Below are positions 26,385 through 51,584 of a stretch of DNA of 58,340 nt, piece after piece. The DNA is from Chromera velia (taxonomy: Eukaryota): NCBI GenBank assembly GCA_018398765.1, contig JAHBMJ010000060.1:1-58340 (forward strand). The letters are read 5' to 3'. How positions within the stretch are numbered: the first letter of the stretch is position 1; every line of letters begins with the position of its first letter. The notes beneath the pieces were generated by a model. It saw only the letters and a program-made list of their open reading frames with translations, did no database searches and was not told the origin of the DNA. The translations under genes were made by a program, and so were the position numbers.

Positions 26385-27048
26385 TCAATAAATAGGAGGG
26401 AGATCGCCCCGTGGTGAAGAGGACTCAGAGTCAGAAAGGCGTGGCGATCCAGAAAAAGGGGACAGAAAACCCTGTCCCCTCGAGCGAGAAAGCTCATTAG
26501 ATGATGGCGAAGGCCATGAAAGCAAAACTTCACTCGAGCTGCGATTCAGTGCAGGATCAGATCCTTCATCGAGTCCCAGCTCACTCTCATCATAAGCAAA
26601 CAACGAAGAAGAGGAAGAAGACGAAAAATGCGAAGATGCAGAGAGACAAGGTTTTTCGGCCATAGCAGATCCAGAAAGAGGAGAAAAAGAGGAGAGAGAA
26701 AGAGAGTTCACAGGATTTTGAACCTGCATACATGCATTCAATGGGTCAATCAGGCCGGGATGGGGGAGGGGTCCAGCTGGATGGCCTCCCTCCTTCCCAG
26801 CACAACCTGACAAATCTCGCGCGGCCCTATTTCCATTAATCCCTCCCCCCTTTCCTTCTTTCCCCCTACTGCCTGCCGTTGAGGAAGAAGAAGAAGAAGA
26901 AGAAGAAGAAGAAGAAGAAGAAGAAAAAGAGGAAGAAGAAAAAGAGGAAGAAGAAGAAGAAGAAGAAGAAGAAGAAGAAGAAGGAGAAGAAGAAGAAGAA
27001 GAAGAAGAAGAAGAAGGAGAAGAAGAAGAAGAAGAAGAAGAAGGAGAA

Positions 27049-27080
<32 letters not shown>

Positions 27081-29640
27081 AGAAAAAGAAGCAGAAGGGT
27101 CTATCCGATGGCCTGGCCTCTCCCCCCCCTCCCCTCCCTGTCCGTTGCCCCCCTCGTTCCTTCCCTTGGCAGGTCCGGCGGAAGAGGAAGAAAAGAAAAG
27201 AGCAGACAAAGAAGAAGAAGAAGAAAAAGAAGAAGAAGAAGAAGAAGAAGAAGAAGAAAGAGCAGCAGCAGCAGCAGCAGAAAAAGAAGAAGAAGAAGAA
27301 GAAGAAGAAGAAGAAAAAGAAGAAAAAGAAGAAGAAGAAGAAGAAGAAGAAGAAGAAGCAGGAGCAGCAGCAGCAAAAGAAGAAAAAGGAAAAGAAGAAG
27401 AAAAAAAAGAAGAAGACGAAAAAGAAGAAGCAGCAGCAGCAGCAGAAGAAGAAGAAGAGGAAGAAGAAGAAGACAAAGAGGAAGCGGAAGGAGAAGGGGA
27501 GGGAGAAGAAGAGGAAGAAGAAGAAGAAGAAGCAAAGGGGGAAGAATTTTTAAAAAGATTCTGACATTTGCCCTGTCTTCCTAAAGAACAGTTCCAGCAA
27601 GCCCTTTTAAGCTTAGCACACCTACAGTGGTTGCAGGTGCTATTCGCAGCACAACTACATTTGCAGCACTGGGTCCTCTCCTCCTTCGACTTCTTTCTCC
27701 CCGAGGCGTCCAGAGGACCTGGGCCGTCACCCCCTCTTTTGTCTTTTCCTTTTTCATTTTCTCCATTCCCTTTGAAGCTTCTTCTATTACCCTCCTTTCC
27801 TTTCTCCCCCCGTTTATCCGTTCCTTTCCTCGTCTCTTCATTTCCTTTCCCTCCTGTCTTCCCCGTTGGTTGGTTCTTCCCCCCTCCCCCCACCCCAGTG
27901 AGAGAGAGAGGAAGAGGAGGTGAAAGAAAAGGAAAAGAAACATTGCATACATCTGTCACCTTCCATTCGATACCTTCTGCACTCCTGTATTCTTCTTTAT
28001 CCAAAGAGATAATATTGTCAGCTACTTCGAGAGGAGAGTGGCGTGTATTGAGAGTCGATGCATCCGAGAGAGGCGAAGGTGTCCTACCTGTGTGAATGTC
28101 ATATGTGATCACTGGAGAAGATAACGTTCTGTCATACTTTCTTTGTCCGAAGTCTACCGAGAAGGCCTCTCTTCTATATATGTACGAGCCGAGCTTACTG
28201 TGATCGTATACTTCATTCCCTCCCTGCCCACCCAAAAAGTCCTCTATGTCCTCCCCTCCAAGTTGCTGCTTCCCATCCCCTCCCTTGAACCCCCTACCCT
28301 AACTCTTTGGAGTTCCCGTCTCCAACAAATCCGGAGGTCTTTGGCCCCACCTCTTTCCAGAAGGCCATCCGCGAGTCCCTTTCCATGCCCCCCTGAAGTG
28401 TCTCCCTGTTCATCTCCCTCTGCCTTGCCGTGACTTGCACATAGGGGGAGGGAGGGGAAACTGTGTCTTCTCAGAAAAAGCATGAAGGGGAGCGCGATCA
28501 GAAACCTTCCCTACCCCACTGACCAGCGTCGGATAGACCGTGGTTCCCCCCAGCCTATCCGTCCCCCCCTTCCCCAGTCGGTCACTGGGGTCTATATGCT
28601 TGTCGCAGGGTGTCGTCGGTCCAATGGTATGATCATTTCCATCGGAGGTTTCAATAACACAATGTGACAGAGGGAATACCGTTTTTTGGAAAGAGATTTG
28701 AGACCGAAAGGAAAACTTCTTTACATAATTTTCAAGGAGCGCAAACCGGTTTGTAACCGAGACAGGGGAACGTTCCTTCCCTCCCTAAAATACCCCTTCA
28801 CAACGCTTTCCCACCCCCCCTTCAGTCCCTGATCTCAACTACCCCAACAGCCCAACTTTTTCCACAGTCTGGAGGATACAATTCACAGCTTGCTCTCTGC
28901 CCTCAATTTTCTTTCTCTCACTGATTCTGTCTATTTCTTCCTTAAGAGTCTGAATTGCCACTGCTCGTTTCTCCATCTCATACACTAACGCCCTTCTCCT
29001 CATCAGTAAACGACTCAACTTCACACAACCTGCCTCATCATCTCCGAGGGATCCGTTATGTGTCGGCATAGGTGGGGTTCGGATCTTTTTCCCCTCCCCC
29101 AACTTCTTTCAGGCTCGAGGGCCCGGAGGGCCATCACCCTCCTCTTCCCTCAGAGAAATTTTTAATTGGGCTCCTCGAACATTTCTCCATCAGACTCATC
29201 CCCTCCTCCGAGCTTCCCCCACCTTGCTGGAGGGGCTGCTGATGCCGGTGTATCATCTCTCTGTCAGATCTGTCCCCTTCTTGCGGGAGATGTGGGTGGG
29301 GTCTGGTGGGATCGATCAATGTCTGCGAACGAACTGAAGAGGGGCCCGGGCTCCACCACCATCTCCTGCCGTTCCTCTCCCCCCCCGACCGGCACCATGC
29401 CAGCTTGTTCAGAGCCCACACCCCCATTGAGGCCAAGCACGGGTTGGGAATTGGGAAAGAAATGTGGGGCAGGCAGGGGTTAGGGTCCATACAGCATTCC
29501 GTCCGAATACCCCTGGTGGTAAGGGTATGGAGACGGGAAGCTAGACGGGAAGCTGTACATGGGGGCTACCATGGGGGCAGTTATGGGGGTAAGTCGAGCT
29601 ATGGCCTCTGCGGGGGGACCATGGCTCCTGGGGTAGAAAA
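26385..29640 (-). pseudogene. LINE ORF1-like region with a coiled-coil segment, a CXC-like Cys cluster and an expanded poly-Ser tract
   Basis: ORF 28235-26385 contains CKCSCAANSTCNHCRCAKLKRACWNCSLGRQGKCQN. (GAA)n at 26880-27540 encodes poly-Ser on the - strand. The upstream pieces (29102-28839 etc.) are interrupted. Confidence 0.6.
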
Positions 29641-36300: not shown

Positions 36301-36657
36301 GAGTTCAATTCAGTCATGTCAAATTGGGTCAATTATATAAGCAAAAGTCAGCGACTGTTACAGCGTCAGATTCATCTCGGTCCAACAGAAACGACTCCGC
36401 GTCTGTGTGATTCGAAAGCTTGCAAAGGCCTCTTTGAAACTTAGGCGTTGCAGCCTGACTCGACGATAAAACGATATAGAGAAGCCTGCATACTGATCTT
36501 TAGAACAAGTGTGCGTGCACCTTGGACACCCTAGAAGGGACGTAGCCTGGCTCGAAAGCTTCGCCACGTGCCTGGTGTGTAGAGATGCTGGTGGAGCTTT
36601 CCGAGAACTTTCAGTCTCCAGGCAGGGGCCCTCTGCTTGACATGAGACAAACAACAG

Positions 36658-38532
36658 ATGCATGAAGATACGAAGAGCGAAGAAAATCAACAGCTTTTGC
36701 AGAGAGACCCTGCGAGGCGCTTCACAGCGCCTGAGGCGCAGCACGGCATGGCGTTTGCAGAGGGAGAAGCCAAAGAGAAGGACACGAGGATGAGTGCGTT
36801 CCTGAGTGCGGACACGTACAGTTTGATGATGATCGCCTTCCTTCCCTGGGGTTTCTGGGCAAAGAAAGGAACCAGTAGGGTCAGGGTAGCTGCACCCACT
36901 GCGTTTGGTCTGTGCCTTCTGTCCGTCTGTCTTCAGTTTTTCTGTCTGGTGTGTCTGGCACCTTCCATGTTTATTTTGGATGAAAAACTGGAGCCGGAGA
37001 ATGAATCAAAAGATCTCAGTCTGGTCGACAACATGAAATCCCAACTGTTGCTCCAAGTCGACATCTTGTCTAAAGAGACAGCATTGTTCTCTTTTGTGAA
37101 GGTGGTCGGTATGATTCTTTTGCTTCTCAGCTGTTTCAATGAGATTGGGGACAAAGCAAGGGGTCTTGTGCTTTTTTGGCAAATTCCCCCAAGGGGTTTT
37201 CTTTGGTTCTTTCCCTGGCTGGTGGGCCTTGCGGGTTTCTTTTTCGTCCAAGTGCTTGTGATCGTCGTTTGTCTTCCCCTCGTTGTCCAGGCAGAAGCCG
37301 CACAGGACGTGATGCTGAACTGTGTCGCTGCTGTGTTCGTCATGGAAGTAGACAACCTTGTGACGAGATTTTTCTTTTCCTCCAATGGATTTGAGTGGAC
37401 AGACGAATGGGAGGTGGGAAGAGAATTGACTGACAAAGAGGTTGACGAAGTTAGAAAGAAAATGAATAGAACGGGAAGGGGGGATGTTTTAGACAGTCGG
37501 TCGTTTGCGTATGGAGCTGAGAGAGCAAAAAACTTCACTCTCCTTGCTACCATGCTGCGTACTGTGGTCACAGCAGTTGTCGGGACGATTGCTTTTTTTC
37601 CTTTCGCCCTCGCATTGTGTCCCGAAAAGAAGTTGACGCAGGAAGGAATCGAGACCACACTTCTGCTCACTGCAGTGTTTGCACTCCCTTTCCTTGGTCA
37701 AGTGATTTTGCTCCTGGCCAACACTGTCGATTGGCAAGAAATATTCGCTGACAATCAGAAGTACCATTATGGTTTTTGGGCGTTTATCAATTTTTACATG
37801 ATCGTGTGGGGGCTCTCGTGCTTCCTTGCACTCGCCTTGATCATCACGCATCTTCGAGACCCCTCGTCATCCTTCACCCTCATATCCTTCCACGGTGCCT
37901 TCTACAGCATCGTAATCCCCCTCATGACCCCCTTGAAGATGGTTGTGATTCCCTCGATCGTCTCCCTCCTGAAGGACGTCACAAGGATGAAATTCTACGG
38001 GAAATTCGCGTGGTTCTTCTCCCTCTCTGGGATTAGAACAGACACCGTGACTGCACAGGAGATGGAGAGGGGGAATCTGCAGATAAATAAAGACGTGGAT
38101 GTCGTCAAACTCTGGTTGTTTGGAACCCTGACAGGGGAAGAGAGACTGAGAGAGATTCAGATTTTCTCCCTCTCCCCCAAAGCAGCAATAGATGCCTTCC
38201 AGATGCTCCCAAAAGATCTTGACAATCTGCTTATCGGGACTTGCGATTTCACCCCGCCTGTCTGGGCAGCGCTTGCTGAGGTCCTCCCTGGCCTCCGGTC
38301 CTTGACTCAGCTCTGGCTTGAGGCTTGTGATATCGAAAATGAGAGTGCGCTTGTCCTCTTTGCCTCCTTGCCCCGATCGCTTAGAATTCTGAAAGCCGGT
38401 TACAATAAATTTGAGCAGAGCGCTTGGGAGGTCGTGGAAGAGAAAGTGAAGAAAGGGGAGCTGCCCGCTCTTTCTGAAGTCTCGACTGATGCGCCACAGT
38501 CTCTTCAGGATGCGATCGGTCAGAACGTGTAG
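36658..38532 (+). CDS. Intronless polytopic membrane protein with C-terminal RNI-like leucine-rich repeats, 624 aa
   Basis: Long, compositionally complex ORF with about 8-9 hydrophobic segments in the first ~440 aa. The C-terminus has LRR-like LPGLRSLTQLWLEACDI and LPRSLRILKAGYNKF. Confidence 0.8.
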   Translation: MHEDTKSEENQQLLQRDPARRFTAPEAQHGMAFAEGEAKEKDTRMSAFLSADTYSLMMIAFLPWGFWAKKGTSRVRVAAPTAFGLCLLSVCLQFFCLVCLAPSMFILDEKLEPENESKDLSLVDNMKSQLLLQVDILSKETALFSFVKVVGMILLLLSCFNEIGDKARGLVLFWQIPPRGFLWFFPWLVGLAGFFFVQVLVIVVCLPLVVQAEAAQDVMLNCVAAVFVMEVDNLVTRFFFSSNGFEWTDEWEVGRELTDKEVDEVRKKMNRTGRGDVLDSRSFAYGAERAKNFTLLATMLRTVVTAVVGTIAFFPFALALCPEKKLTQEGIETTLLLTAVFALPFLGQVILLLANTVDWQEIFADNQKYHYGFWAFINFYMIVWGLSCFLALALIITHLRDPSSSFTLISFHGAFYSIVIPLMTPLKMVVIPSIVSLLKDVTRMKFYGKFAWFFSLSGIRTDTVTAQEMERGNLQINKDVDVVKLWLFGTLTGEERLREIQIFSLSPKAAIDAFQMLPKDLDNLLIGTCDFTPPVWAALAEVLPGLRSLTQLWLEACDIENESALVLFASLPRSLRILKAGYNKFEQSAWEVVEEKVKKGELPALSEVSTDAPQSLQDAIGQNV

Positions 38533-39521: not shown

Positions 39522-42500
39522 TCATCGTTGAGGCTTCGAATCTTGGCTGGCTGCGGTAGCTGTTGCATCTGCCCCTCCCCCTGCTTGTACAGCACTCTCC
39601 TCTCCCTCACCCTCTCCCCCCGGGCCCATTTCAGCTGCAACGGGTGCCGAGGCGGCAGGCACGGGGGGACTCAAGGGTGCCTCGTCGTGCCCAGCAGCAG
39701 ACCCGGCAACTGACTCGGGTGCAGATGCGGGGGGGGACTGGTGCGACGGGGAGACGGCAGAAGACGCCCCCTGCTGCCCGTCTCCATGCTCACCCCCCGC
39801 CTGGCCGTCTCCTTCTGGCCTGGGGTGTTTCCTTGGTCGTCCCTTCGGCCTTCCCGTGCCGACAGACTTGGGGGCTTGCTGGTTGGAGGAACTCTGGACC
39901 CGCGAGACGACTGAACCCGCAGCGGGGGGCACGAGGGACTGCATTGGGTGCTTTGGGGGGGAACCAGACTTCGCTAGGGGTTTCGGGCGTGTGCGTGTGG
40001 GGGAAGTGAGGGAAGCAGCGGCAGCAGCAGCAGAAGAGGAAGAGGATGCAGCAACGTCTCCCGTATCGGGACCTGCTCCACTTTCCTCTGTGACTGTACG
40101 TGCAAGAGCAGTGCCCCGCGCGAGTGTGGAGGGGACGATAGAACGAGGCTCCCATCCAGCAGCGCTATCCTCAGGTTCGTGATAGCGGGGGTTCAACTTG
40201 ATCTGACGGTGGGAGCGGGTGTAAACTCCTGAAGGACCTGGAGAGGGCGGTTGTTTCATTTCTCTTTCTCTTTCTTTCCTTTTCTGTTCTCTTCTTTCTT
40301 CTGTCATGACGGATCCTCGAGGTCTTCCTGGACCCCTTTTTTGAACAGTCTCACCATCCCCCTCATCATCTCCATCCTCATCATCATCGTCACTCGAAGG
40401 CTCAAGATCGGACTCTGCTTTCTTTTCTTTCTCCTCTGTTTTCACCTTCTTGTCAGACGACTGCTTCGTTTTCTCTTTCTCCGGCTTGTCTGCAGACTCC
40501 TCGCGCCCCCTTTTCTTGTCCTTTCCCGTTGAACCGGCTCCCGACGCAGTTCTTTGAACTGTTAGTCCTCCTTTCTTTTCTTTGGGACCCGACTTTTCTC
40601 TAGTCTTTTCCCCCGATCGCCCTAGTGCCTGTCCCTTCTCTCTACTGCCTGCAGAGGAGGAAATCGCCCCCTTCTTCACGCCACCACCTCCACTCACTCC
40701 TCCCGCCAAACCCCGGCTTCCCTGCTTGACCACCCCCCCCCTACTGGGAGCAGCACTAGACCCCCCTTGTTTCTTCGTCCCCCCCCCCCTGTCTCTGTCC
40801 CTATTCCCTCCCCCCACCGCCTCCTTCTTTCCCTTTCCCTTCAATCCCCCTTGTCCCTTTTCCTGGCTATCCGAGTCTTCTTGCTCGTACTGCGCATAGT
40901 CAGCAAGACCAGAAGAAGACGCCTCACGGGAATATGCCCCGGAACCCCGCTGATTCAGAGACGTGGACGACAAACGTCGAGGACCGACGCCCCCTACAGC
41001 CCGAGACACATGCACTCCCCCTCCCCCCCCACCGGCAAACCCCCCTGCTGCTGCTGCAGCTGCTGCTGAAGCCGCCCTATTGGCAGCTCCCATTGTCTGT
41101 ATGATTCTCTTCTGACGGGAGTGGTCTCGGAGGGATTGTTGCAGGAGGGCAATCCGGTGTCTCACTGCCTCCTTCCATGCGGGAAGGAGCCCCAGGTTCT
41201 GGATGGAAAAGGACTTCGCTTCGTTCTTCGTGCGCAGGGCGCTCACGCAGAAACTGTACGTCGACCAGTCGCAGCGGATACCCTGAAACTGCAGAGAGGA
41301 GAGAGAGGTGAGTCGGAGGCAGAGAAGAAGAGAAGAGAACAGAAAAGAGGTTAGATGCAATGAAAACAGGCAGCAAACGGAGATGTTCACAGACAGACAA
41401 GCACACACACGCACACAGAGGGATGACCATGTGAAGAAAAACGTGCACTTATTCCCTCAAGGAGATGATAAGAAAGAAAAATGTTACCCGCAGGCCAGCA
41501 GACGGTCATACCGAGACCGACGAATGTGCGCACGAGCACATCGCGAGCCTGCCTAGAAGTATGCAGAAAAGAAAGGAAGGCCTGTCGGTGTACTACTCAT
41601 CGCAAAAAAACGGGAGGAAAGAGAGAGAAGGCTCACAGAACCAAAGAAACAAAACACAGAGAATAAACCAAAGAAAGAAAGAAAGAAAGAAAGAAACAAG
41701 GAAGGACACCTTCGAATAACTGTGCGATGCTATACAGACAGACAGACAGACAGGCACAGTCTCTCTCTCTCTCTCTCTCTTCCTCGCTGCTGGCTGACCG
41801 ACCGACCGACCGACCTCAGGCAGATTGAAGAGGAGCATTCTGAGAATTTCGATCGGAAGTTTCTGGTGGCTTTTGTGTGGCTCCAGGATCTGATCGAAGT
41901 ACGACAAAACCTTGATGCCGATTCGGCGGATCGCCTTCCTCGCCATTTTCTCTACAGGGTCCTTGAATTTCAACGCCAACCACTCCCCCTCCCCCCGCCC
42001 TGTCGGAAGCTCCGAGGCAATCTCAAAATGAGGCTTGTACTGTTTGCACATCGGCAGACGCGTAGCAAGTTCTGCTGGTTCATGTTCGTCCCCTGAGTGC
42101 ACTTCCCCCCCAGTCCTCCCCGAGAGACGCGCCAACAGCGCTCGGAATGCGCGCCTCCGCGCTCTCTTGAAGCCGTGCCGACGGATACCAAAAGACGTGG
42201 GACCCCGCCACCCCTTCTTGAAATAGTGTTGGGCCAGGTCCCGCTTGAGGGTCCAAGAGAGAGTGTTGAAGTCGAACACCAGCCCCGGGATCTGCAAAAA
42301 GCCAAACAAAAGCAAAAAGAAAGAAAAACAATGGATCTGAGAGAGAGTGTTGAAGTCGAACACCAGCCCCGGGATCTGCAGGAGGGAACGTTACAAGATT
42401 GCGGGCGTGGACTTAGACAGACAAGACAGAATCAGTGAAAAGGAAACGGCCTCTCGGAAGGTAGGAATGTGTTTCCACAGTGCGCCAACGACTTCGCGAG

Positions 42501-45500
42501 GCAGGTTTGGAAGGGATGGAAGAAGGAAGAACAAAGCTCTCGGACGCACCGGGAGGAGAAGAGAAAATAAGAAGAGGAGAAAGGAAGAAAGGAAAGGAGA
42601 AAATGGCAGAGAAGGGAAGAGGAATCAACCCCACGCACAGACAGAACACTGAGGGCACATGCATTCTGTCAATGAATGAATGAAAACTCCTTTTGACTTA
42701 TTTAAATCTGTTTCTTATTCTCTTCCTTTTGCCTCGAAAGTTCCCCATAGCTCCCTCCCACCCCCTCTCTCTCCCATCACAAACAAAAGCTATGCCGTCA
42801 AGAAGAAGTAAGGTGCAATGAAAGAATAAAATAAAAATTCGATAGATCTGCAAGCAAAAAGAAAGAAAAACAAGCAAACAGAGAAACAAAGAGAGCAAGA
42901 AACTTACAAACAAGAAGGTCAACCAACCAGGAGGGTCACTTTCTCCACCAATTCCTTCATCACGCTTGTTTGGACAGGCCCTTCCCACAAGAGTTCCCCC
43001 CACACACGGTTATTCGCATCCAATGGGAACGGTTCTGTAATCGCCTCCTGTCCAGGGATCTGCGCATCCCGCACGTCGAGGATCTCTCTCTTCTGCCCAC
43101 TCACCCACACGGACCGGGTAGGGAACTCCTTCCCATACGCAATCACGTCACTCAAAATGCGGAGGGGGCGCAGGGGTGGGTACGTGGTCTCGGGGGAAGG
43201 GGACTGGCCGGGAGGCACCCGGGGGCCCGTGGGGGTTTGCAGCATTGGGGCTGCATTCAGTCCTCGGGGGGACCGCAGGGGTGATGCCTGCGGCAGGGGT
43301 GATCTTGGCTCGGTAACCATTCCCCTTTCGCGTGCAATCTGAATGAGGGGACAGTTGACAGAAGGGCAAAACCCCGTCGGGAGGCCGTCTCTTCTCGGTC
43401 GGCCCCTGGAGGCTTTGGCTCTTGCCAACATCTCCTGCAACGCTGCTTCTGTAGGCTCGCACTCACATGTCTTCCTCTCCCCCCCCTGACCCCACGCGTC
43501 TGCAGGTGCAAACGGAAACGAACTCACTGACTGCTGCTGAGGAAAGACTGACGATCCTGCTGCGGGTGACTGCCGGAGTACTTTCTTTCCTGCGGGCTCG
43601 TGAGCCAAAAGCACTCTCGGCACCTTCCCACCGACACGGGCCCACTGAGACCAGAATTCTATCGGACCTGCCTTCTCAATGGCAACGAAAGGATCGTCAA
43701 AGTCACTGTCGGCCATTTCAGCTTCAGTGCGGGGCCTGGCACCCAGAGGCAAGGGAAGGGAATTTCCATTTCCCCCTAGATTCCCCTGGTTAGAGGAGTT
43801 TTTACGGGGGTCCATGGTGAGTCCTGCCTCGACTGCGGCTTTGAAGAGCAAATTTCTCTGCTCACACATTTCGTACTCAACTCCATATGCAACGTCAGGA
43901 CCGTCTGAACCTGGTGTTTCGTATCCTCCCCCCTCACCGTTCAGTTCGCATAGAAGTGAATTTGTGTTTCTGTCTCTGATCTTTTTCTTCTTGTTCGGAG
44001 GAGCGGGAGGGAGGAGCTCGGTCTCATCAACAGGATCGAACGGAGGGAGGGGGAAGGACAAAGGGTCCTCCAATAAAGAACAAAAAGGCTTTGGGGGACG
44101 CGAGCGCTTCCCCCCATCCGAAGCCCGGTTGTTCATCCGATCCATCCCCCCTTCGCCATACATCCCATACCCATCCCCCCCCATCCCCGCCTCTCCCTCA
44201 TCCCCCCCCTCAAACCCCATTTCCGAATCTTCTTCTTCCACACGAATGTCGGGACCCTTCAAGTAAACAAACGCATTTCCCTCGAAGGAAGAACACGCAG
44301 GCGGGCCCGGGACCGACCACCCGACCTCCCCGCCCACGGCAGATGCGGCGGCGGGGCTCCCGTCCCTGTCTCTATCTCGGTAGGGGAAGAACGGGGACCT
44401 CTCGCGTCGCCTCCCCTCTCTTCTCTCAGGATCTGATCTGGCCACGATTTCCTGAATGCACCATGGGGTTTCGATCGACATCATGCAGATCAAAGAACAC
44501 ACGAAATCCGAACGACGGTGCAAGAATCCAAACGGAAGTCGCCATAAGCATTTTTCATCTGTCTGTCTTACCTGTGCAAACCCAAAGAAGGCAAAGGAGG
44601 GGAAACAAACATCTCTTGAAAGGAGAGAAGAACGTCGTGTCCACTTCCATCACCACTCAAGCAAAGATGGCCGAAACAAAGCATTGATTCTTATCAATAA
44701 GGGACAAACGGACAACCGCACAGATTGAAAATAGATCCACTTGACATCATGCCCTCACACATCCTCTCGGGAGTCCGCCGTCCCTTCGCAAAACGGAGAA
44801 ATGACGACTGATACCAGGGAGACAGAAAGAAAGCGGGTACATCGGCAGTCAGTGACAGGTCCACAAACTCAAGTTGTTGACTCGGGACACACATGCAGTT
44901 CCTTTTTCTCTCAAACATTCAAAAACAATTTACTCTGGAAGACAAACAGACAGAGCACAGCAGCGTAGATGGCTCTTTCTTCCTTTTCCCAGACACAAAG
45001 ACAGGCAGACTGGCAAACTGACCATCGCCGTCTTCCACGCCCGAAGCAGCTCTGGGTTCGGCAGGCTGTGCCACTCGGAGACTCCGAATCTTTCTCCGTG
45101 CTCCTGCAAGACCTCATCGGCCAGGGGACACGTCAGAAGCTTCTCCAGGGCCTCCTTTCTTGCCTCGATTCTCTTTCTTTCCTTCTCACCTTCCTCCTTC
45201 TCAGTCCCTTCCACTCCCATGGACACGTCGCCTCCATCTGCACCCCCCTCCCTCTCCTCATAATCAGTCAACATCAGATCCGCCCCAGACGCAACTACAG
45301 AGGCAATGAGGGACTTGCGTAGCGCCTCCACCTCCTCTCTTCGCTTTCTCTCCGAGTCTGCACGTGACCTCATGCCGGCCCGCTCCCGATGAGACACTGT
45401 CGCCGTGCCCCCACCAGTCGACAGCGGTGCCCCCGCCAGCTGCTGAGCCTGCTTGTGGGAAAAGCCCAGCAGAGACGCACGACCCGGGGACACGTCCGGA

Positions 45501-46979
45501 GACGGCAAGTCGCCCTTGGGTGTGCCAAACGGTTGACCAAACAAAGACAGCGACTCGTCGTCCCTCAAGAGACCTCCGGGGCCCGTACGACCTGCGGCAG
45601 GGGTGCTGGTTGCAGAGGTGAGCGCAGGGGGTCTGACTCCATTTGCTCTTTGTTGTGTCTGCTGCTGCTGCTGCTGCGGGGAGGCGAATGGGGGCGACTG
45701 GGCGAAGGAAGCGTGGCTGTTGTAAGTGGCGACATGCACAGCCTGCAGGGGCACCGGGGGATACCCAGGGGAGGGATGGGAAGCAGGGAAGGGGGGGCGA
45801 ACCATCGCCCCTCCCGGTCCTTGCATTGCAAAGGGGGGCAACGCGAATCCCCCGTGAGGGTTTGGGGGGGGTCCTGTACCCGCCTGGCTCATGGCTGGTG
45901 GTTGGGGACCGTCGAATGGCACGAGGGAGACGGACAAGTCGTGTGGGGACATGCCGGGGTGTGGGTGATGGGCTGGGGGGTACATTAAATTTGGGTGGTG
46001 GTGGAATGCGCGTGTGGGGGGGAATCCGTGAGGGCCATGGGGGGGTGGGGACATCGCTACCTGACTTCCACCGGGACCTACGGAGACGTGGGGGGGGAGG
46101 CTGCCAGGAGGACCGAATAAATGCATCTGAGACGGACCCCCAGGGCCAGGGGGGAGGGTGGGATAGTCCTCATTGCCGTCTCGTCTCATTCCCTTTGCAC
46201 CTGCTGGTGGCAGTTTCCTCCTGTTGTCTATACTCCCCTTGCCTGCCTGAGCCTGTGTCCGAGCTATCCCGCCTCTGGGGCTCATGGCTGGACGCGGCGG
46301 TGGTCGAGGGATGGTATTTGGTCTCGGGGGGTGCACATCCACCGTTGCCCAAGCGTGTGTGGCATCGGGCATTTCAGGGCTCCCCATTGGAGGGCCCCAG
46401 GCAGGACCAGGGACCCCGGCACCAGGGGGAGCCGGGGCCCCTCTGGGTGGTTGTGTGATTCCTCCTCCCTGAGGAGGGTACACTCTGGAGATCCCCCCAT
46501 TCTCCATACCTGCTGGGAGGAGGCGGTGTGCATCGGGAGGGAAGGGGGCGATGTGGGGAAGGGGATCTACGGATCTGGCTGTGTGTGTTGGGTCTGGAAA
46601 GGCCCCGGCGGGCATACCGAAAGTGTGGGAGGGGGGGGTTGGTGGGAGGGGTGGAAGGGGCGGCCGGTCGAGTGCTTTGAGTGCTGCCTCGAGAAATGTC
46701 TTTTTGGGTGCGCCTGGAGAGAGCCGCAGGGCCTCGCTGGATTCCTTCAGTGCCAACGCCGTCTCGTGGGGTCTCTCTGCGGCCCAATCACGCACTCTCC
46801 TCGTCACTGCACGGAGGCATTCGCGCTGAGTGGAGAGAACTGCGATGCCCTGCCCGGTGTGCCTGGAGACGGAATCTGACAGAGAGGGCACAGCTTTGAC
46901 TTCAAACCCAGACTCCGAGAGCTCGGAGGGAGGGGGGGCGGGGGGATCTGCATAGACAGAGATAGACAGACAAGACACA

Positions 46980-47022
<43 letters not shown>

Positions 47023-50000
47023 GGCGGAGAGACAGGTTCGTTTTGGATTGCTTTCAGGACAAACAGGCAAGAAGACAGGGGGTCAGACAAGCTACAGATC
47101 TCGGCTTCTTTTACTTTCTTTCAGACAGACGTACGGACGGACATGTGCGAAGGCAGTCAGGCGGATGCATGTCAGCTGTTTCGATGCCCTTTTTTCGCTT
47201 CAATCAGAAGCATCAAAGCCGAACAGAACAACACCAAAAAGCCACCCCCCCCCTGAACGACCTGTGAGTTCGGAACTGGAGCTGTAGTCTGGAAACAGCT
47301 CTCCTTTCATGGCCTCGAGGAAACGCACACTTCCCTCCCAAGCGAGTTGACGTTCCCGTACGGGGCCCGCATCGAAAGTCAACTCGTCCTGCGCGCACAG
47401 CGAGCGATCAATAAATAAAGTCCACAAAGAATCGAAAATCTCACACGCGAACGGTTAGAGAGAGAAGAACAGGGACTCGAACGGACACTATGCGAGAAGC
47501 TTAGACGGGAACGTGTCAACTCTTCCCTTCCGTCGCCCGGGAGAGACGAATGACCAAGACGAACCGAGAACCTGCCTAACCCACCCATGCGCGAATCTTC
47601 TCTCCTGCCTTTGCGAAAGCGCAAAGTCGGGGCCACCCTTTCACAAAAACCACTGCGTAGAGTATTTTCGGTTTGCGGGGTTGCCTCTGCTCTTCCCCCT
47701 TGGTTTCTCCAGGGGGTCGATAGAACGACACTTCCTCCGGCTCCACTTCCACCAAACAACGAAGGAAAGTGGAAGGCAACACCAAACCACCAGACCCTGA
47801 GCTGTTCTCTCCACACTCTTTCAGGACATCCTTCTCAGCTGCCTGCGCCTCTGCCACCCTCTTGGGCATCTGAGAGAGGGGCAAATTCTCCAGATGAACC
47901 TTGTTCACCGAGAACAAAGCCGGTCGCAAAGATGCTGTTCCCCCGCTAGCGGAAGAAGAAGAAGCAGAAGGAGCAGGAGACAAACCGCCTGCACTGTCTG
48001 CACTGGGAGGTGCTATCTGTGCCACATAGAAAGAGGCCGCCAGCCTCATTGGGGACCCGGGGGGGGTCTCCACGAGTTGTCGGAGGGTGGGAGGGATTCT
48101 GCGATCAACCATACATACAGAAGTGTGCATGCATAAATCATACAGAATGTGTGGCAAAATAATCAATGAACAATAGTACAGAATTAATGAAAAGAAATGC
48201 ATGTGGGAGGGATTCTGCAATCAACCATACATACAGAGGTGCTTTCGTCCACACATCAAAAAGGATGAAGGCGGAAAAAACCGTACTGATGTCGGGTGCG
48301 CCTTTGTTCAGTCGTCTTTTTTACAAGACAAAGGGGACGGATCGAGGAAAGAAGAAAAGCCAGGCGGCAAAACGTGAAAAAGGAAGAGGGTGGAGTTGCG
48401 CAGCCTTTTCCAACCTATGCAGCCTATCGAAGCCTGCAGGGGCAAACAAAAAAGAACCCGCCGGATATTCCGTCATCACAAATCTGAAAAGAAAAGAAAA
48501 AGCGCGGTCGATCGATCGAGGCAAACCATGCACATTCATTGTTGCCAATGCATTCTCTAGGGAGGGAGAGAGAGAGAAGGCTCGCGCGAGAGTCCAAAAA
48601 GGCATGCATCTCCGGGTGCGTTGCAGTCACGTTTTCCTTTCTTCTCCAACCTGTAGTGGTTCGCAAATGCCAATTCGTTTCCCTTCGTGGAAGCGTCCAG
48701 GACAAGCCAGCCCTCGGGACCCCTGTCTGCCAGCAGCCACAGGCGCAAACCGATGCACATCCCGGGAGCAAGGGGGGTGAACGGAGTGAGAAGAGAAGGA
48801 GGAGACTTCGGCACGGGCACCGGCCCCGTCCCTCCTGCTGGGGCTGCACCCGCTGCCGCTGCCGCCCCTCCCGCATACCGTCCCTGGGGCGACACGGCGG
48901 TGGGCTTCTCCGGGGGTGCAAATTGTTCGTGCAGCGCCATCCTTCTGTCAACCTCCTCCTTCCGCATCAAACGCACAATCCCCGTGACCTCTCCAAGGAA
49001 CATCGCGCGCGTTTCCTCTCCCACAGGGGTGGGTCCCAGGAAACCCAAGCCTGCGTGCGTGCGTCAGTCATATATATGTCAGACAATCGTGGCAACTGTA
49101 CAGATGCACAATGTGAATACATAACAGCCCCCCTTGCTCTTCACCCAGACACACGGGGGCTTCCCAGAAAGAAACCCTCCACTCAACCCTTTTTTTTCTT
49201 TCGGGCAATAGGTGCGGATGAAGCCTTTTGTGTTCCCTGACGGTTGCCAGTGGGAGCTTGCGGCAGACAGAAGAACCGAGCACAAAGGCGACGACAAACA
49301 CAAGCTTGCCTGTCTGAGTGACCAGTCTCCTGACAGAGAGACTGACCGAAGGACGCCTCAAAGTGTTTTGAGGTGATGCACGCGAGGTGACGGGGCTCCA
49401 CAATGCGGACAAGAGAGAGGTACAGGTTTTTCTCGCCTGCAATCAACCGTCCATCCATGCATCCGTCCATATGTCCATACATAAATTGATACGGAACACA
49501 CACAATTGCATGCCATAGACAAACCTTGCCCTGTGGGTGCACCCACACAGACGTACAGACACACACACACACACGGACGGAGGCACGCCCGCCCGCTCGA
49601 AACTAAAGGCACTTGGTGAGCGAGTAATTCAGCAAAGGGGGGGAGGTGCACCTCTTTCACTGGACTCACGCACCACATACACGAGATTGCGGACGCCCGT
49701 ACAGAAAGGAGACGGCACCTAGATTCTCGCATCGCTCTTTTGCCCACAGATGGGCAGGTGCGCTTCATTCCTTCCCCTCCCCTTTCGACCAATTCTCCTT
49801 ACACAGCAGAACGGACCTTCTTCGATCTGCCTGACGAGCTGCTCCTCGTCAGATGGGACTTCCCCTGGCCGTATTCCCTCAATGCGCACTTTCGCTTCGC
49901 CCCCCGCATGCTCGAGCATCGCGGTCCGTGCGGCCTCGGCACTTGGGTGGATCTCATTGTCTGCAAAGAAATTGTAAAGAGATAACATAGAGGACAACAG

Positions 50001-50339
50001 GGATGAGGCATGAAGGAGGCAAAGAGGAAAAGGGAATGAAGAGGGATGAACCTGAAGAGTGATCAACGAAACGACTGTTGCCGGGGGGAGAGGAGAAGCG
50101 AGATTTACTGTCTGCAAAGGGCAATTAAAACCGGACTGACGATTTAGCCACTGGTGTCTTCTCTTTAGACACGCCGTCTGTAGTTCTCCCCAAGTATCGG
50201 GGAAAAATACAGGGGGTGCACTCCCAGATCTGGACACGGTACTGTACGGTCTGCAGACAAGAACACACGAACAGAAATTCCAGCCAGAGGAAGAAATCAC
50301 GAGCGCCAACCATGAATTTTTCCCTTACCTGGAAAGCAT
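39522..50339 (-). CDS. ~2400-aa nuclear protein: degenerate SET domain + Pro-rich linker + two ApiAP2-like domains + two AT-hooks, 12 exons
   Basis: Phase-consistent GT-AG exons: 50339-50329, 50250-50052, 49960-49817, 49718-49670, 49436-49347, 49050-48651, 48098-47585, 47388-47262, 46947-45023, 44451-~42928, 42291-41815, 41288-39522. SET motifs FGLGF...FLGEVTG, VLDASTKGNELAFANHYR, GWPRLCAF...DELTFDAG. AP2-like IPGLVFDFNTLSW...SFGIRRHGFKRARRRAF and FQGIRCDWSTYSF...KSFSIQNLGLLPAWKEAVRHR. AT-hooks KRGPGRPRGS and GRPKGRPRK. The first four exons are less certain. Confidence 0.78.
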
Positions 50340-51095: not shown

Positions 51096-51584
51096 ATGCG
51101 CACATCCTGGTGGAATCTCCTCTACTTTGCTGTATTTCTTCATGCGCTGGCATTTGTTTCTGTGCAAAGCCGCACGGACAGCGTCCCCACTTCAAGACAC
51201 GACATGTTGAAACCCTCAGCAGTCGGTGCAGCCACCGGATCGCCTCCACGAGGTTTGACTGCAGATGCTGCCGGGGCTCCTTCTTCCAGTTTCATCCAGA
51301 AAGAGGCCACAGCCACGCGAAGAAGCGAAGAGGCAAAGACAGATCCACCAACGGAGAAGGCCAAGGGAACAGAAGAGACGCAGAACACGTCAGAAAAGAA
51401 ACGGATTCTCTCCACAAGCACGTCAACTGTGAAACCGATCCGAATGTCTTCCAACGGCCTTGTGGGAATTCTCATGGGTCTCTTCATGACCTTCATCTTC
51501 GTGTCCGGCCTCTCGTGTCTGGTCGGAATTTCAGTGCCTACAGTCTTCGATGACAAAGTACTCCCAATGAACAAGGAGTACTGA
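51096..51584 (+). CDS. Small type-I membrane protein, probably V-ATPase accessory subunit Ac45/Voa1-like, 162 aa
   Basis: Signal peptide, low-complexity lumenal part, and a C-terminal TM (GLVGILMGLFMTFIFVSGLSCLVGI) followed by SVPTVFDDKVLPMNKEY. This resembles the Ac45/Voa1 TM-tail pattern, but the family call is from memory and not searched. Confidence 0.7.
   Translation: MRTSWWNLLYFAVFLHALAFVSVQSRTDSVPTSRHDMLKPSAVGAATGSPPRGLTADAAGAPSSSFIQKEATATRRSEEAKTDPPTEKAKGTEETQNTSEKKRILSTSTSTVKPIRMSSNGLVGILMGLFMTFIFVSGLSCLVGISVPTVFDDKVLPMNKEY

What the first reader, a model, noticed from the sequence alone, without database searches (positions are those of the whole stretch)
39522..50339. SET domain fused to tandem ApiAP2 domains and AT-hooks in one protein
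Seen: 12 exons join in phase into a ~2400-aa ORF. Its N-terminal part carries SET motifs in the expected order, and its C-terminal part has two AP2-like segments (~42291-42125 and ~41288-41150) and two GRP-core AT-hooks (~40311-40340, ~39816-39857). Established: ApiAP2 proteins are the main sequence-specific transcription factors of apicomplexans and chromerids and mostly carry few other domains. Inference: this is a self-targeting chromatin regulator that couples sequence recognition to a histone-methyl writer or reader module. Automated annotation would probably miss it because both domain types are diverged and split by introns.
Basis: partly seen in the sequence, partly recalled or inferred. 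Interest (0 to 1): 0.85.

Follow-up and report, generated by a model that had tools for sequence, protein, structure and literature searches.

The report
Algal AP2-like regulator with crippled SET
A predicted gene of the alga Chromera velia, a free-living relative of malaria parasites, carries a damaged histone-methyltransferase (SET) domain that is likely inactive, two likely AP2-type DNA-binding domains and three AT-hook motifs, so it would be a DNA-targeted chromatin scaffold of a kind already seen in Toxoplasma.

Summary
Largely real but less new than claimed. The exons join in phase (11 exons, 2362 aa; 12 exons, 2385 aa). The gene is Chromera velia Cvel_14677 (UniProt A0A0G4F1N4), whose deposited model uses the same ten downstream exons, including both questioned junctions. 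No transcript was laid on it. The SET domain is supported: motifs III and IV are the best sites in the whole protein and beat 1000 of 1000 shuffles, and 26 of 30 Atlas hits carry SET. But motif IV reads ELTFDAG, with Ala where 58 of 58 and 36 of 36 matching references have the catalytic Tyr; the motif II Tyr and post-SET cysteines are missing, and about 147 residues are inserted. AP2 evidence is weaker: Pfam AP2 E=0.015 for the first segment, the second only as its internal repeat (3 of 5000 shuffles); folding gave no verdict; no ortholog was found. A third AT-hook lies at 43410-43390. SET+AP2 fusion is already described in Toxoplasma AP2VIIa-7. Verdict: new variant, probably pseudo-SET.

The parts
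50329..50339 (-). Likely exon 1 (ATG at 50339, strong GTAAGG donor)
   Evidence: the deposited alternative exon 1 (51496-51179) lies antisense to an Ac45/VOA1-like gene
50141..50250 (-). Exon 2
49817..49960 (-). Exon 3
49347..49436 (-). Exon 4; holds a pre-SET-like block (49425-49378) resembling the 'I..P.HPA' block of NDYR-type SET proteins
   Evidence: best site in whole protein, 7 of 200 shuffles as good
48651..49050 (-). Exon 5; degenerate SET motifs I/II (GLGFLG, FLGEVTG 49003-48980) and motif III (48706-48653, DASTKGNELAFANHY)
48415..48483 (-). Optional in-frame 69-nt exon (gives the 12-exon form); intron-like composition (GC 0.49, T 0.35), absent from the deposited model
47585..48098 (-). 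Exon 6; most of the about 147-aa insert within the SET domain, then the C-terminal SET strands up to AFAKAGEKIRAW
47262..47388 (-). Exon 7; SET motif IV DELTFDAG (47388-47365), Tyr replaced by Ala
45023..46947 (-). Exon 8; Pro/Gly-rich low-complexity linker, basic RKRR at 45349-45338
42928..44451 (-). Exon 9; NLS-like NKKKKIR (43995-43975) and first AT-hook
43390..43410 (-).
41815..42291 (-). Exon 10; AP2-like segment 1 (42291-42124) and a helical-looking linker
   Evidence: Pfam AP2 E 0.015, below cut-off
41142..41288 (-). AP2-like segment 2 (start of last exon)
   Evidence: internal repeat of segment 1: 14 identities, 3 of 5000 shuffles as good, best window in protein; no Pfam hit
39522..41288 (-). 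Last exon; disordered Gly/Lys/Ser/acidic tail to TGA
40314..40340 (-). AT-hook-like motif 2, KRGPGRPRG
39828..39854 (-). AT-hook-like motif 3, double core GRPKGRPRK

Best explanation
This is likely one Chromera velia gene (Cvel_14677) for a large, mostly disordered, probably nuclear protein whose two likely AP2-type domains and three AT-hook motifs would tether it to promoter DNA, while its damaged, likely inactive SET domain would act as a protein-binding scaffold rather than as a methyl writer. Shown: in-phase exon chain matching the deposited model; SET motifs III and IV; substitutions at catalytic positions; AT-hook cores; internal repeat of the AP2-like segment. Inferred: one mRNA; AP2 fold and DNA binding; loss of catalysis; recruitment of other chromatin enzymes, by analogy with the inactive Set3/MLL5/SET-24 class and with AP2VIIa-7 sitting in the TgBDP1/2/5 complex.
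For: Exon chain open, all introns GT-AG, T-rich and with stops; same nine downstream introns in the deposited Augustus model, which was made with RNA-seq intron hints genome-wide (PMC4501334 methods). SET motif III score 17.6 and motif IV 14.2 against next-best sites -14.6 and -18.9, 0 of 1000 shuffles each; 26 of 30 Atlas hits carry PF00856, best 0.92. Residue after E[LIV]xx[DSN] is Tyr in 58 of 58 bacterial and 36 of 36 NDYR-type references that match the pattern, Ala here; motif III-IV spacing 179 versus 29-49; no post-SET Cys motif. Tyr and ELxF/YDY are catalytic signatures (PMC3178901, PMC9487757); SET proteins lacking them act without activity (PMC12886896). AP2: only Pfam family hit on segment 1; segment 2 its best internal repeat. 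Strict AT-hook pattern found twice, 0 of 1000 shuffles.
Against: AP2 support is thin: 16 bits against a cut-off of 33.3; a phage AP2 profile did not see either segment (pairwise 150 and 23 of 300 shuffles); local alignment of the two segments was not significant (119 of 2000); the Atlas gave no usable hit. Atlas recognition for the SET exon (1887) is below the 2300 mark for strong evidence. Pfam SET does not hit the joined SET region; N- and C-terminal NDYR-type sub-profiles did not match it. The SAM-binding Asn-His is kept, so activity is not excluded, and my references were bacterial and fungal/algal, not apicomplexan SETs. 50 of 108 bacterial references did not match the motif IV pattern and were not counted. 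No ortholog shows that the fusion is conserved.
Confidence: 0.42

Rival explanations
1. Self-targeting active methyltransferase: the AP2 pair brings an atypical but working SET enzyme to its own target genes.
For: Asn-His of motif III, the D-A-x-x-x-G-N-E run and E-L-T-F-D are kept; Toxoplasma AP2VIIa-7 is described as carrying a methyltransferase domain (PMC10470533). From memory, untested: some apicomplexan PHD-SET proteins such as PfSET10 may carry a similar atypical C-terminal motif.
Against: Motif IV Tyr is Ala, motif II Tyr is Val, RFxNH Arg is Ala, no post-SET Cys cluster, about 147-aa insert.
Confidence: 0.17
2. One gene with a SET-derived domain and AT-hooks, but the two repeated segments are not functional AP2 DNA-binding domains (chance likeness, or AP2 folds used as scaffolds); DNA contact would come from AT-hooks alone.
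For: Sub-threshold Pfam score, no Atlas or PDB hit, phage AP2 profile blind to them; AP2 folds reused as non-DNA-binding scaffolds are known (PMC11742926).
Against: AP2 is the single Pfam family that hits segment 1 out of 24,736; the segments are a significant internal repeat with conserved G, D, SF.I..G..A spacing; the phage profile is also weak on true ApiAP2 (PF14_0633 E 0.4).
Confidence: 0.2
3. Two neighbouring genes (SET-like upstream, AP2/AT-hook downstream) merged by gene prediction.
For: No transcript was laid across the junctions; an in-frame Met pair lies 10-11 codons upstream of 44451; the deposited model is a prediction and its first exon is probably wrong; no ortholog confirms linkage.
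Against: Each large exon ends at a GT donor 2 to 30 codons before an in-frame stop and resumes in phase after an AG; introns are 526-636 nt, no AATAAA; two independent readings chose the same junctions.
Confidence: 0.12
4. A young, lineage-specific chimera whose SET part is a decaying relic without function.
For: No relative among 1.84 billion representatives for the AP2 region except a tandem-repeat artefact; heavy substitutions and inserts in SET.
Against: About 7 kb of coding sequence stays open across 11 exons; fold-core motifs persist on both sides of the insert.
Confidence: 0.09

Closest known systems
Toxoplasma gondii AP2VIIa-7 (TGME49_202490)
   Same: AP2 factor that carries a SET domain in the same chain; part of the TgBDP1/2/5 chromatin-reader core complex (PMC10470533 passages; PMC5963570 passages).
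   Different: It has a PHD finger; none is found here. Here two AP2-like segments and three AT-hooks, SET degenerate. Orthology was not tested: its sequence was not returned by any search.
Plasmodium ApiAP2 factors with AT-hooks (for example AP2-I, PF3D7_1007700)
   Same: Large low-complexity proteins with several AP2 domains plus an AT-hook (PMC6631176 passages).
   Different: No SET domain is listed among their extra domains in that review; AP2 domains here score far below Pfam's cut-off; no ACDC hit.
Inactive Set3/MLL5/SETD5/UpSET/SET-24 class
   Same: SET fold lacking catalytic residues yet acting in chromatin complexes (PMC12886896 passages).
   Different: Those lack the NH motif as well as the Tyr and usually have PHD; this protein keeps NH, loses the Tyr, and is joined to AP2-like domains. 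Functional analogy only.
NDYR-type small SET proteins of fungi and algae (L009-L126; Pfam SET)
   Same: Central motif DASxxGNExxFxNxYR and the upstream HPA-like block.
   Different: They are compact single-domain proteins with Tyr intact; this set was picked by a recalled motif resembling the query, so the central match is partly circular.

Membership tests
SET domain (fold family) | Motif III RFxNHxCxPN | tested here: met
   Best site in protein with a bacterial profile, 0 of 1000 shuffles; F, N, H kept, R, C and N replaced
SET domain (fold family) | Motif IV ELxFDY after motif III | tested here: met
   ELTFD present at best site, in order, 0 of 1000 shuffles
SET domain (fold family) | Motifs I (GxG) and II (YxG) | tested here: inconclusive
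   GLG and FLGEVTG lie in the right order by eye, but motif II profiles did not pick the site
SET domain (fold family) | Pfam PF00856 above gathering score | tested here: not met
   No hit on exons, joined region or full protein
SET domain (fold family) | Pseudoknot SET fold | not tested
Active SET lysine methyltransferase | Catalytic Tyr of motif IV | tested here: not met
   Ala; Tyr in 58 of 58 and 36 of 36 matching references
Active SET lysine methyltransferase | SAM-binding Asn-His | tested here: met
   ANHYR
Active SET lysine methyltransferase | Methyl transfer in vitro | not testable with these tools
   needs an assay
ApiAP2 transcription factor | AP2 domain by profile (Pfam PF00847 cut-off 33.3 bits) | tested here: not met
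   16 bits, E 0.015 for segment 1, none for segment 2; the apiAP2-specific HMM of PMC4501334 was not available
ApiAP2 transcription factor | Three beta strands plus C-terminal helix | tested here: inconclusive
   Near single-sequence models: pLDDT 35, pTM 0.21; pLDDT 61, pTM 0.33, two helices, no strands
ApiAP2 transcription factor | Sequence-specific DNA binding | not testable with these tools
   needs PBM, SELEX or ChIP
AT-hook | GRP core flanked by basic residues | tested here: met
   Three sites; strict pattern 2 observed, 0 of 1000 shuffles reach 2; Pfam AT_hook gave no hit
AP2VIIa-7 orthologue group | PHD finger | tested here: not met
   No Pfam PHD, no CxxC pair, no PHD pattern
AP2VIIa-7 orthologue group | Reciprocal sequence similarity or tree position | not tested
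   No apicomplexan protein was returned

The most novel reading that the evidence does not exclude
A free-living chromerid has its own DNA-targeted pseudo-methyltransferase: tandem AP2 domains and AT-hooks aim a SET domain that kept its SAM pocket but lost its catalytic Tyr and gained a 147-residue insert, working as a methyl-lysine or SAM-sensing reader. If related to Toxoplasma AP2VIIa-7, the SET-AP2 coupling predates parasitism; if not, it arose twice.
Probability: 0.2. Interest if true: 0.65.

Novelty: new variant of a known kind. Interest (0 to 1): 0.4.

Why it matters
ApiAP2 factors are thought to work by recruiting chromatin enzymes in trans. A covalent AP2-SET fusion is known once, in Toxoplasma, and is uncharacterised. 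A second case in a photosynthetic relative, with a SET domain that looks catalytically dead, would give a comparative handle on when this coupling arose and whether the SET part writes or only reads. It also shows that sub-threshold AP2 and SET domains are missing from chromerid inventories. The organism is hard to manipulate and no ortholog was found, which limits the pay-off.

Tried and rejected
Transcript check: no RNA holder listed; four runs guessed to be RNA hold 0.52-0.67 of the words and the model's exons would give 0.62, but nothing was laid, so this is not used as evidence and the junctions stay untested. No whole genome is held, so paralogues in Chromera were not searched. Homologue searches: exon 42291-41815, 0 of 982 candidates; AP2-2 region, only the protein itself among 8; SET exon, 0 of 7992; HMMER over 1.84 billion representatives with the AP2 region, 2 hits: self and P0002, rejected as a 58-59-aa tandem-repeat protein whose score sums 11 weak stretches. 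The SET region was not run in that library (one job). PDB sequence searches: nothing meaningful. PHROGs and NCBIfam: nothing. Atlas on the AP2-1 exon: no usable hit. Two AlphaFold2 runs with two-row alignments: low confidence, no verdict; no fold search was run on them. Phage AP2 profile from 15 sequences: no match. An ACDC-like reading of the linker (by eye, recalled motif) got no Pfam support. Direct splice from exon 1 to 49960 is out of frame (which also held a coordinate slip fixed). The deposited first exon is rejected as probably antisense shadow. Earlier scan findings: none in three look-ups. Iyer et al. 2008 not held.

Full report
Gene structure. The minus strand of 39522-50339 holds long open exons between T-rich, stop-containing introns. 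Joining them at GT-AG sites gives an open frame from ATG 50339 to TGA 39522: 11 exons and 2362 aa, or 12 exons and 2385 aa with an optional in-frame 69-nt exon at 48483-48415. I chose the sites by eye, so phase agreement alone is not independent. An independent reading exists: a search with the start of the last exon returned one protein, identical over the query, UniProt A0A0G4F1N4, Chromera velia Cvel_14677, 2464 aa, named 'Uncharacterized protein'. It maps to the same ten exons from 50250 down and differs from my model in only two blocks: its first exon is 51496-51179, and it lacks the optional exon. Woo et al. made these models with Augustus and RNA-seq intron hints (PMC4501334, methods passages); whether hints covered this gene is not known. 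No reads were laid, so a single transcript is inferred, not shown.

SET half. Pfam finds no SET domain on the exons, on the joined region or on the whole protein. The ESM Atlas gave SET for exon 49050-48651: 26 of 30 hits, best score 0.92, recognition 1887, which the tool calls weak. I gathered reference SET genes with motif patterns (5 of 5 tested from the metagenome set matched Pfam SET, 4 above cut-off). With position profiles from the bacterial set, motif III (98 distinct blocks) scores 17.6 at P0001 residue 336 and motif IV (43 blocks) 14.2 at residue 514; the next-best sites score -14.6 and -18.9, and 0 of 1000 whole-protein shuffles reach either. True members score about 50, so this is a distant copy. 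Motif IV was not used to select the references. Against this: motif II profiles missed the FLGEVTG site (79 and 90 of 200 shuffles as good), the pre-SET block was marginal (7 of 200), and HMMs of the parts before and after the central motif in 34 of 43 NDYR-type ORFs did not match. A SET origin is likely at about 0.9.

The domain is damaged. Motif IV reads ELTFDAG; the position after D is Tyr in 58 of 58 bacterial references that match the pattern (50 of 108 did not match it) and 36 of 36 NDYR-type ones (5 of 41 did not match). The Arg of RFxNH is Ala, YxG reads VTG, there is no post-SET Cys motif, and motif III-IV spacing is 179 residues against 29-49. Asn-His is kept. The motif definitions and the catalytic role of the C-terminal Tyr are from PMC9487757 and PMC3178901 (passages); SET proteins that lack such residues and still regulate chromatin are described in PMC12886896 (passages). 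No apicomplexan SET sequences were among my references; I recall, untested, that PfSET10-like proteins have an atypical motif IV, and the passages read (PMC11580448, PMC8638923) did not address it.

AP2 half. Segment 1 (42291-42124) has AP2 as its only Pfam match, 16 bits, E 0.015, against a cut-off of 33.3; segment 2 (41288-41142) has none. The two align end to end with 14 identities; the global score 22.5 is reached by 3 of 5000 shuffles, and segment 2 is the best window for segment 1 in the whole protein, although the local score is not significant (119 of 2000) and the borders were set by eye. A 15-sequence phage AP2 profile did not detect either, but it barely detects a true ApiAP2 either (E 0.4). 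Two folds with two-row alignments were of low confidence and showed helices only: no verdict. The Atlas had no usable hit. I put the AP2 identity at about 0.7. GRP-core AT-hook motifs occur at 43410-43390, 40340-40314 and 39854-39828; the strict pattern occurs twice, never twice in 1000 shuffles. Basic NLS-like runs are present; no PHD pattern or CxxC pair exists.

Relatives. None found: three word-index searches (limited length ranges) and a full HMMER search of 1.84 billion representatives with the AP2 region gave only the protein itself and a repeat artefact. The SET region was not searched in that library. Conservation of the fusion is therefore unshown.

Mechanism. Most likely: a nuclear protein in which the tandem AP2-like domains read a promoter motif, the AT-hooks add minor-groove grip on AT-rich DNA, the long Pro/Gly-rich and acidic tracts provide flexible interaction surfaces, and the SET-derived domain binds partners or methyl-lysine peptides without catalysis (0.42). 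Rivals: active atypical writer (0.17), segments not functional AP2 (0.2; compare PMC11742926, passages), two genes (0.12), decaying chimera (0.09).

What is known. Toxoplasma AP2VIIa-7 (TGME49_202490) contains AP2, PHD and SET and belongs to the TgBDP1/2/5 core complex (PMC10470533, PMC5963570; passages). AP2 plus AT-hook is common in Plasmodium (PMC6631176, passages). Chromerids have many ApiAP2 genes (PMC4501334). I found no mention of this gene: 0 hits for its id in the 16 supplements of PMC4501334, and searches for AP2/SET/AT-hook/Chromera combinations showed no description of a chromerid SET-AP2 protein; subscription papers and other supplements were not covered. Also read in passages without bearing: PMC13518913, PMC4117751, PMC3598677. 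Verdict: a real, unannotated variant of a known architecture, distinguished by no PHD, two AP2-like repeats, three AT-hooks and a probably dead, insert-split SET. Interest 0.4.

Noticed in passing
window 42385-42336 and 48245-48205 (minus strand): Two introns of this gene carry an upstream copy of the real acceptor plus the first bases of the exon (about 39 nt copied at 42375 versus 42291; about 11 nt at 48215 versus 48098). Use of 42375 would add 28 residues in frame. Could be local duplications, alternative acceptors or assembly slips.
   Followed up: partly
window 51096-51584 (+): Single-exon ORF with a signal-peptide-like start and an Ac45/VOA1 V-ATPase accessory TM match (E 8e-5), head to head 757 bp from ATG 50339; the deposited Cvel_14677 model overlaps it antisense, so it may be missing from the annotation.
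   Followed up: partly
window 23345-24247 (-): Reverse transcriptase domain (RVT_1, E 4.6e-28), probably a retrotransposon; neighbouring long ORFs 24251-25417 and 26388-28298 had no Pfam hit.
   Followed up: no
window 14060-15777 (-) and 17481-18323 (+): Three ORFs with Receptor L domain matches (E 1.3e-9, 8.8e-4, 1.2e-8) on opposite strands, possibly an inverted pair of surface-protein genes.
   Followed up: no
window 36646-38532 (+): 628-aa open frame with several hydrophobic stretches and a leucine-rich-repeat-like C-terminus by eye; no Pfam hit; converges on the 3' end of this gene.
   Followed up: no
window about 43465-43345 (-): Four cysteines (CEC, then C..VNC) flank the first AT-hook motif; possibly a small metal-binding cluster, untested.
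   Followed up: no
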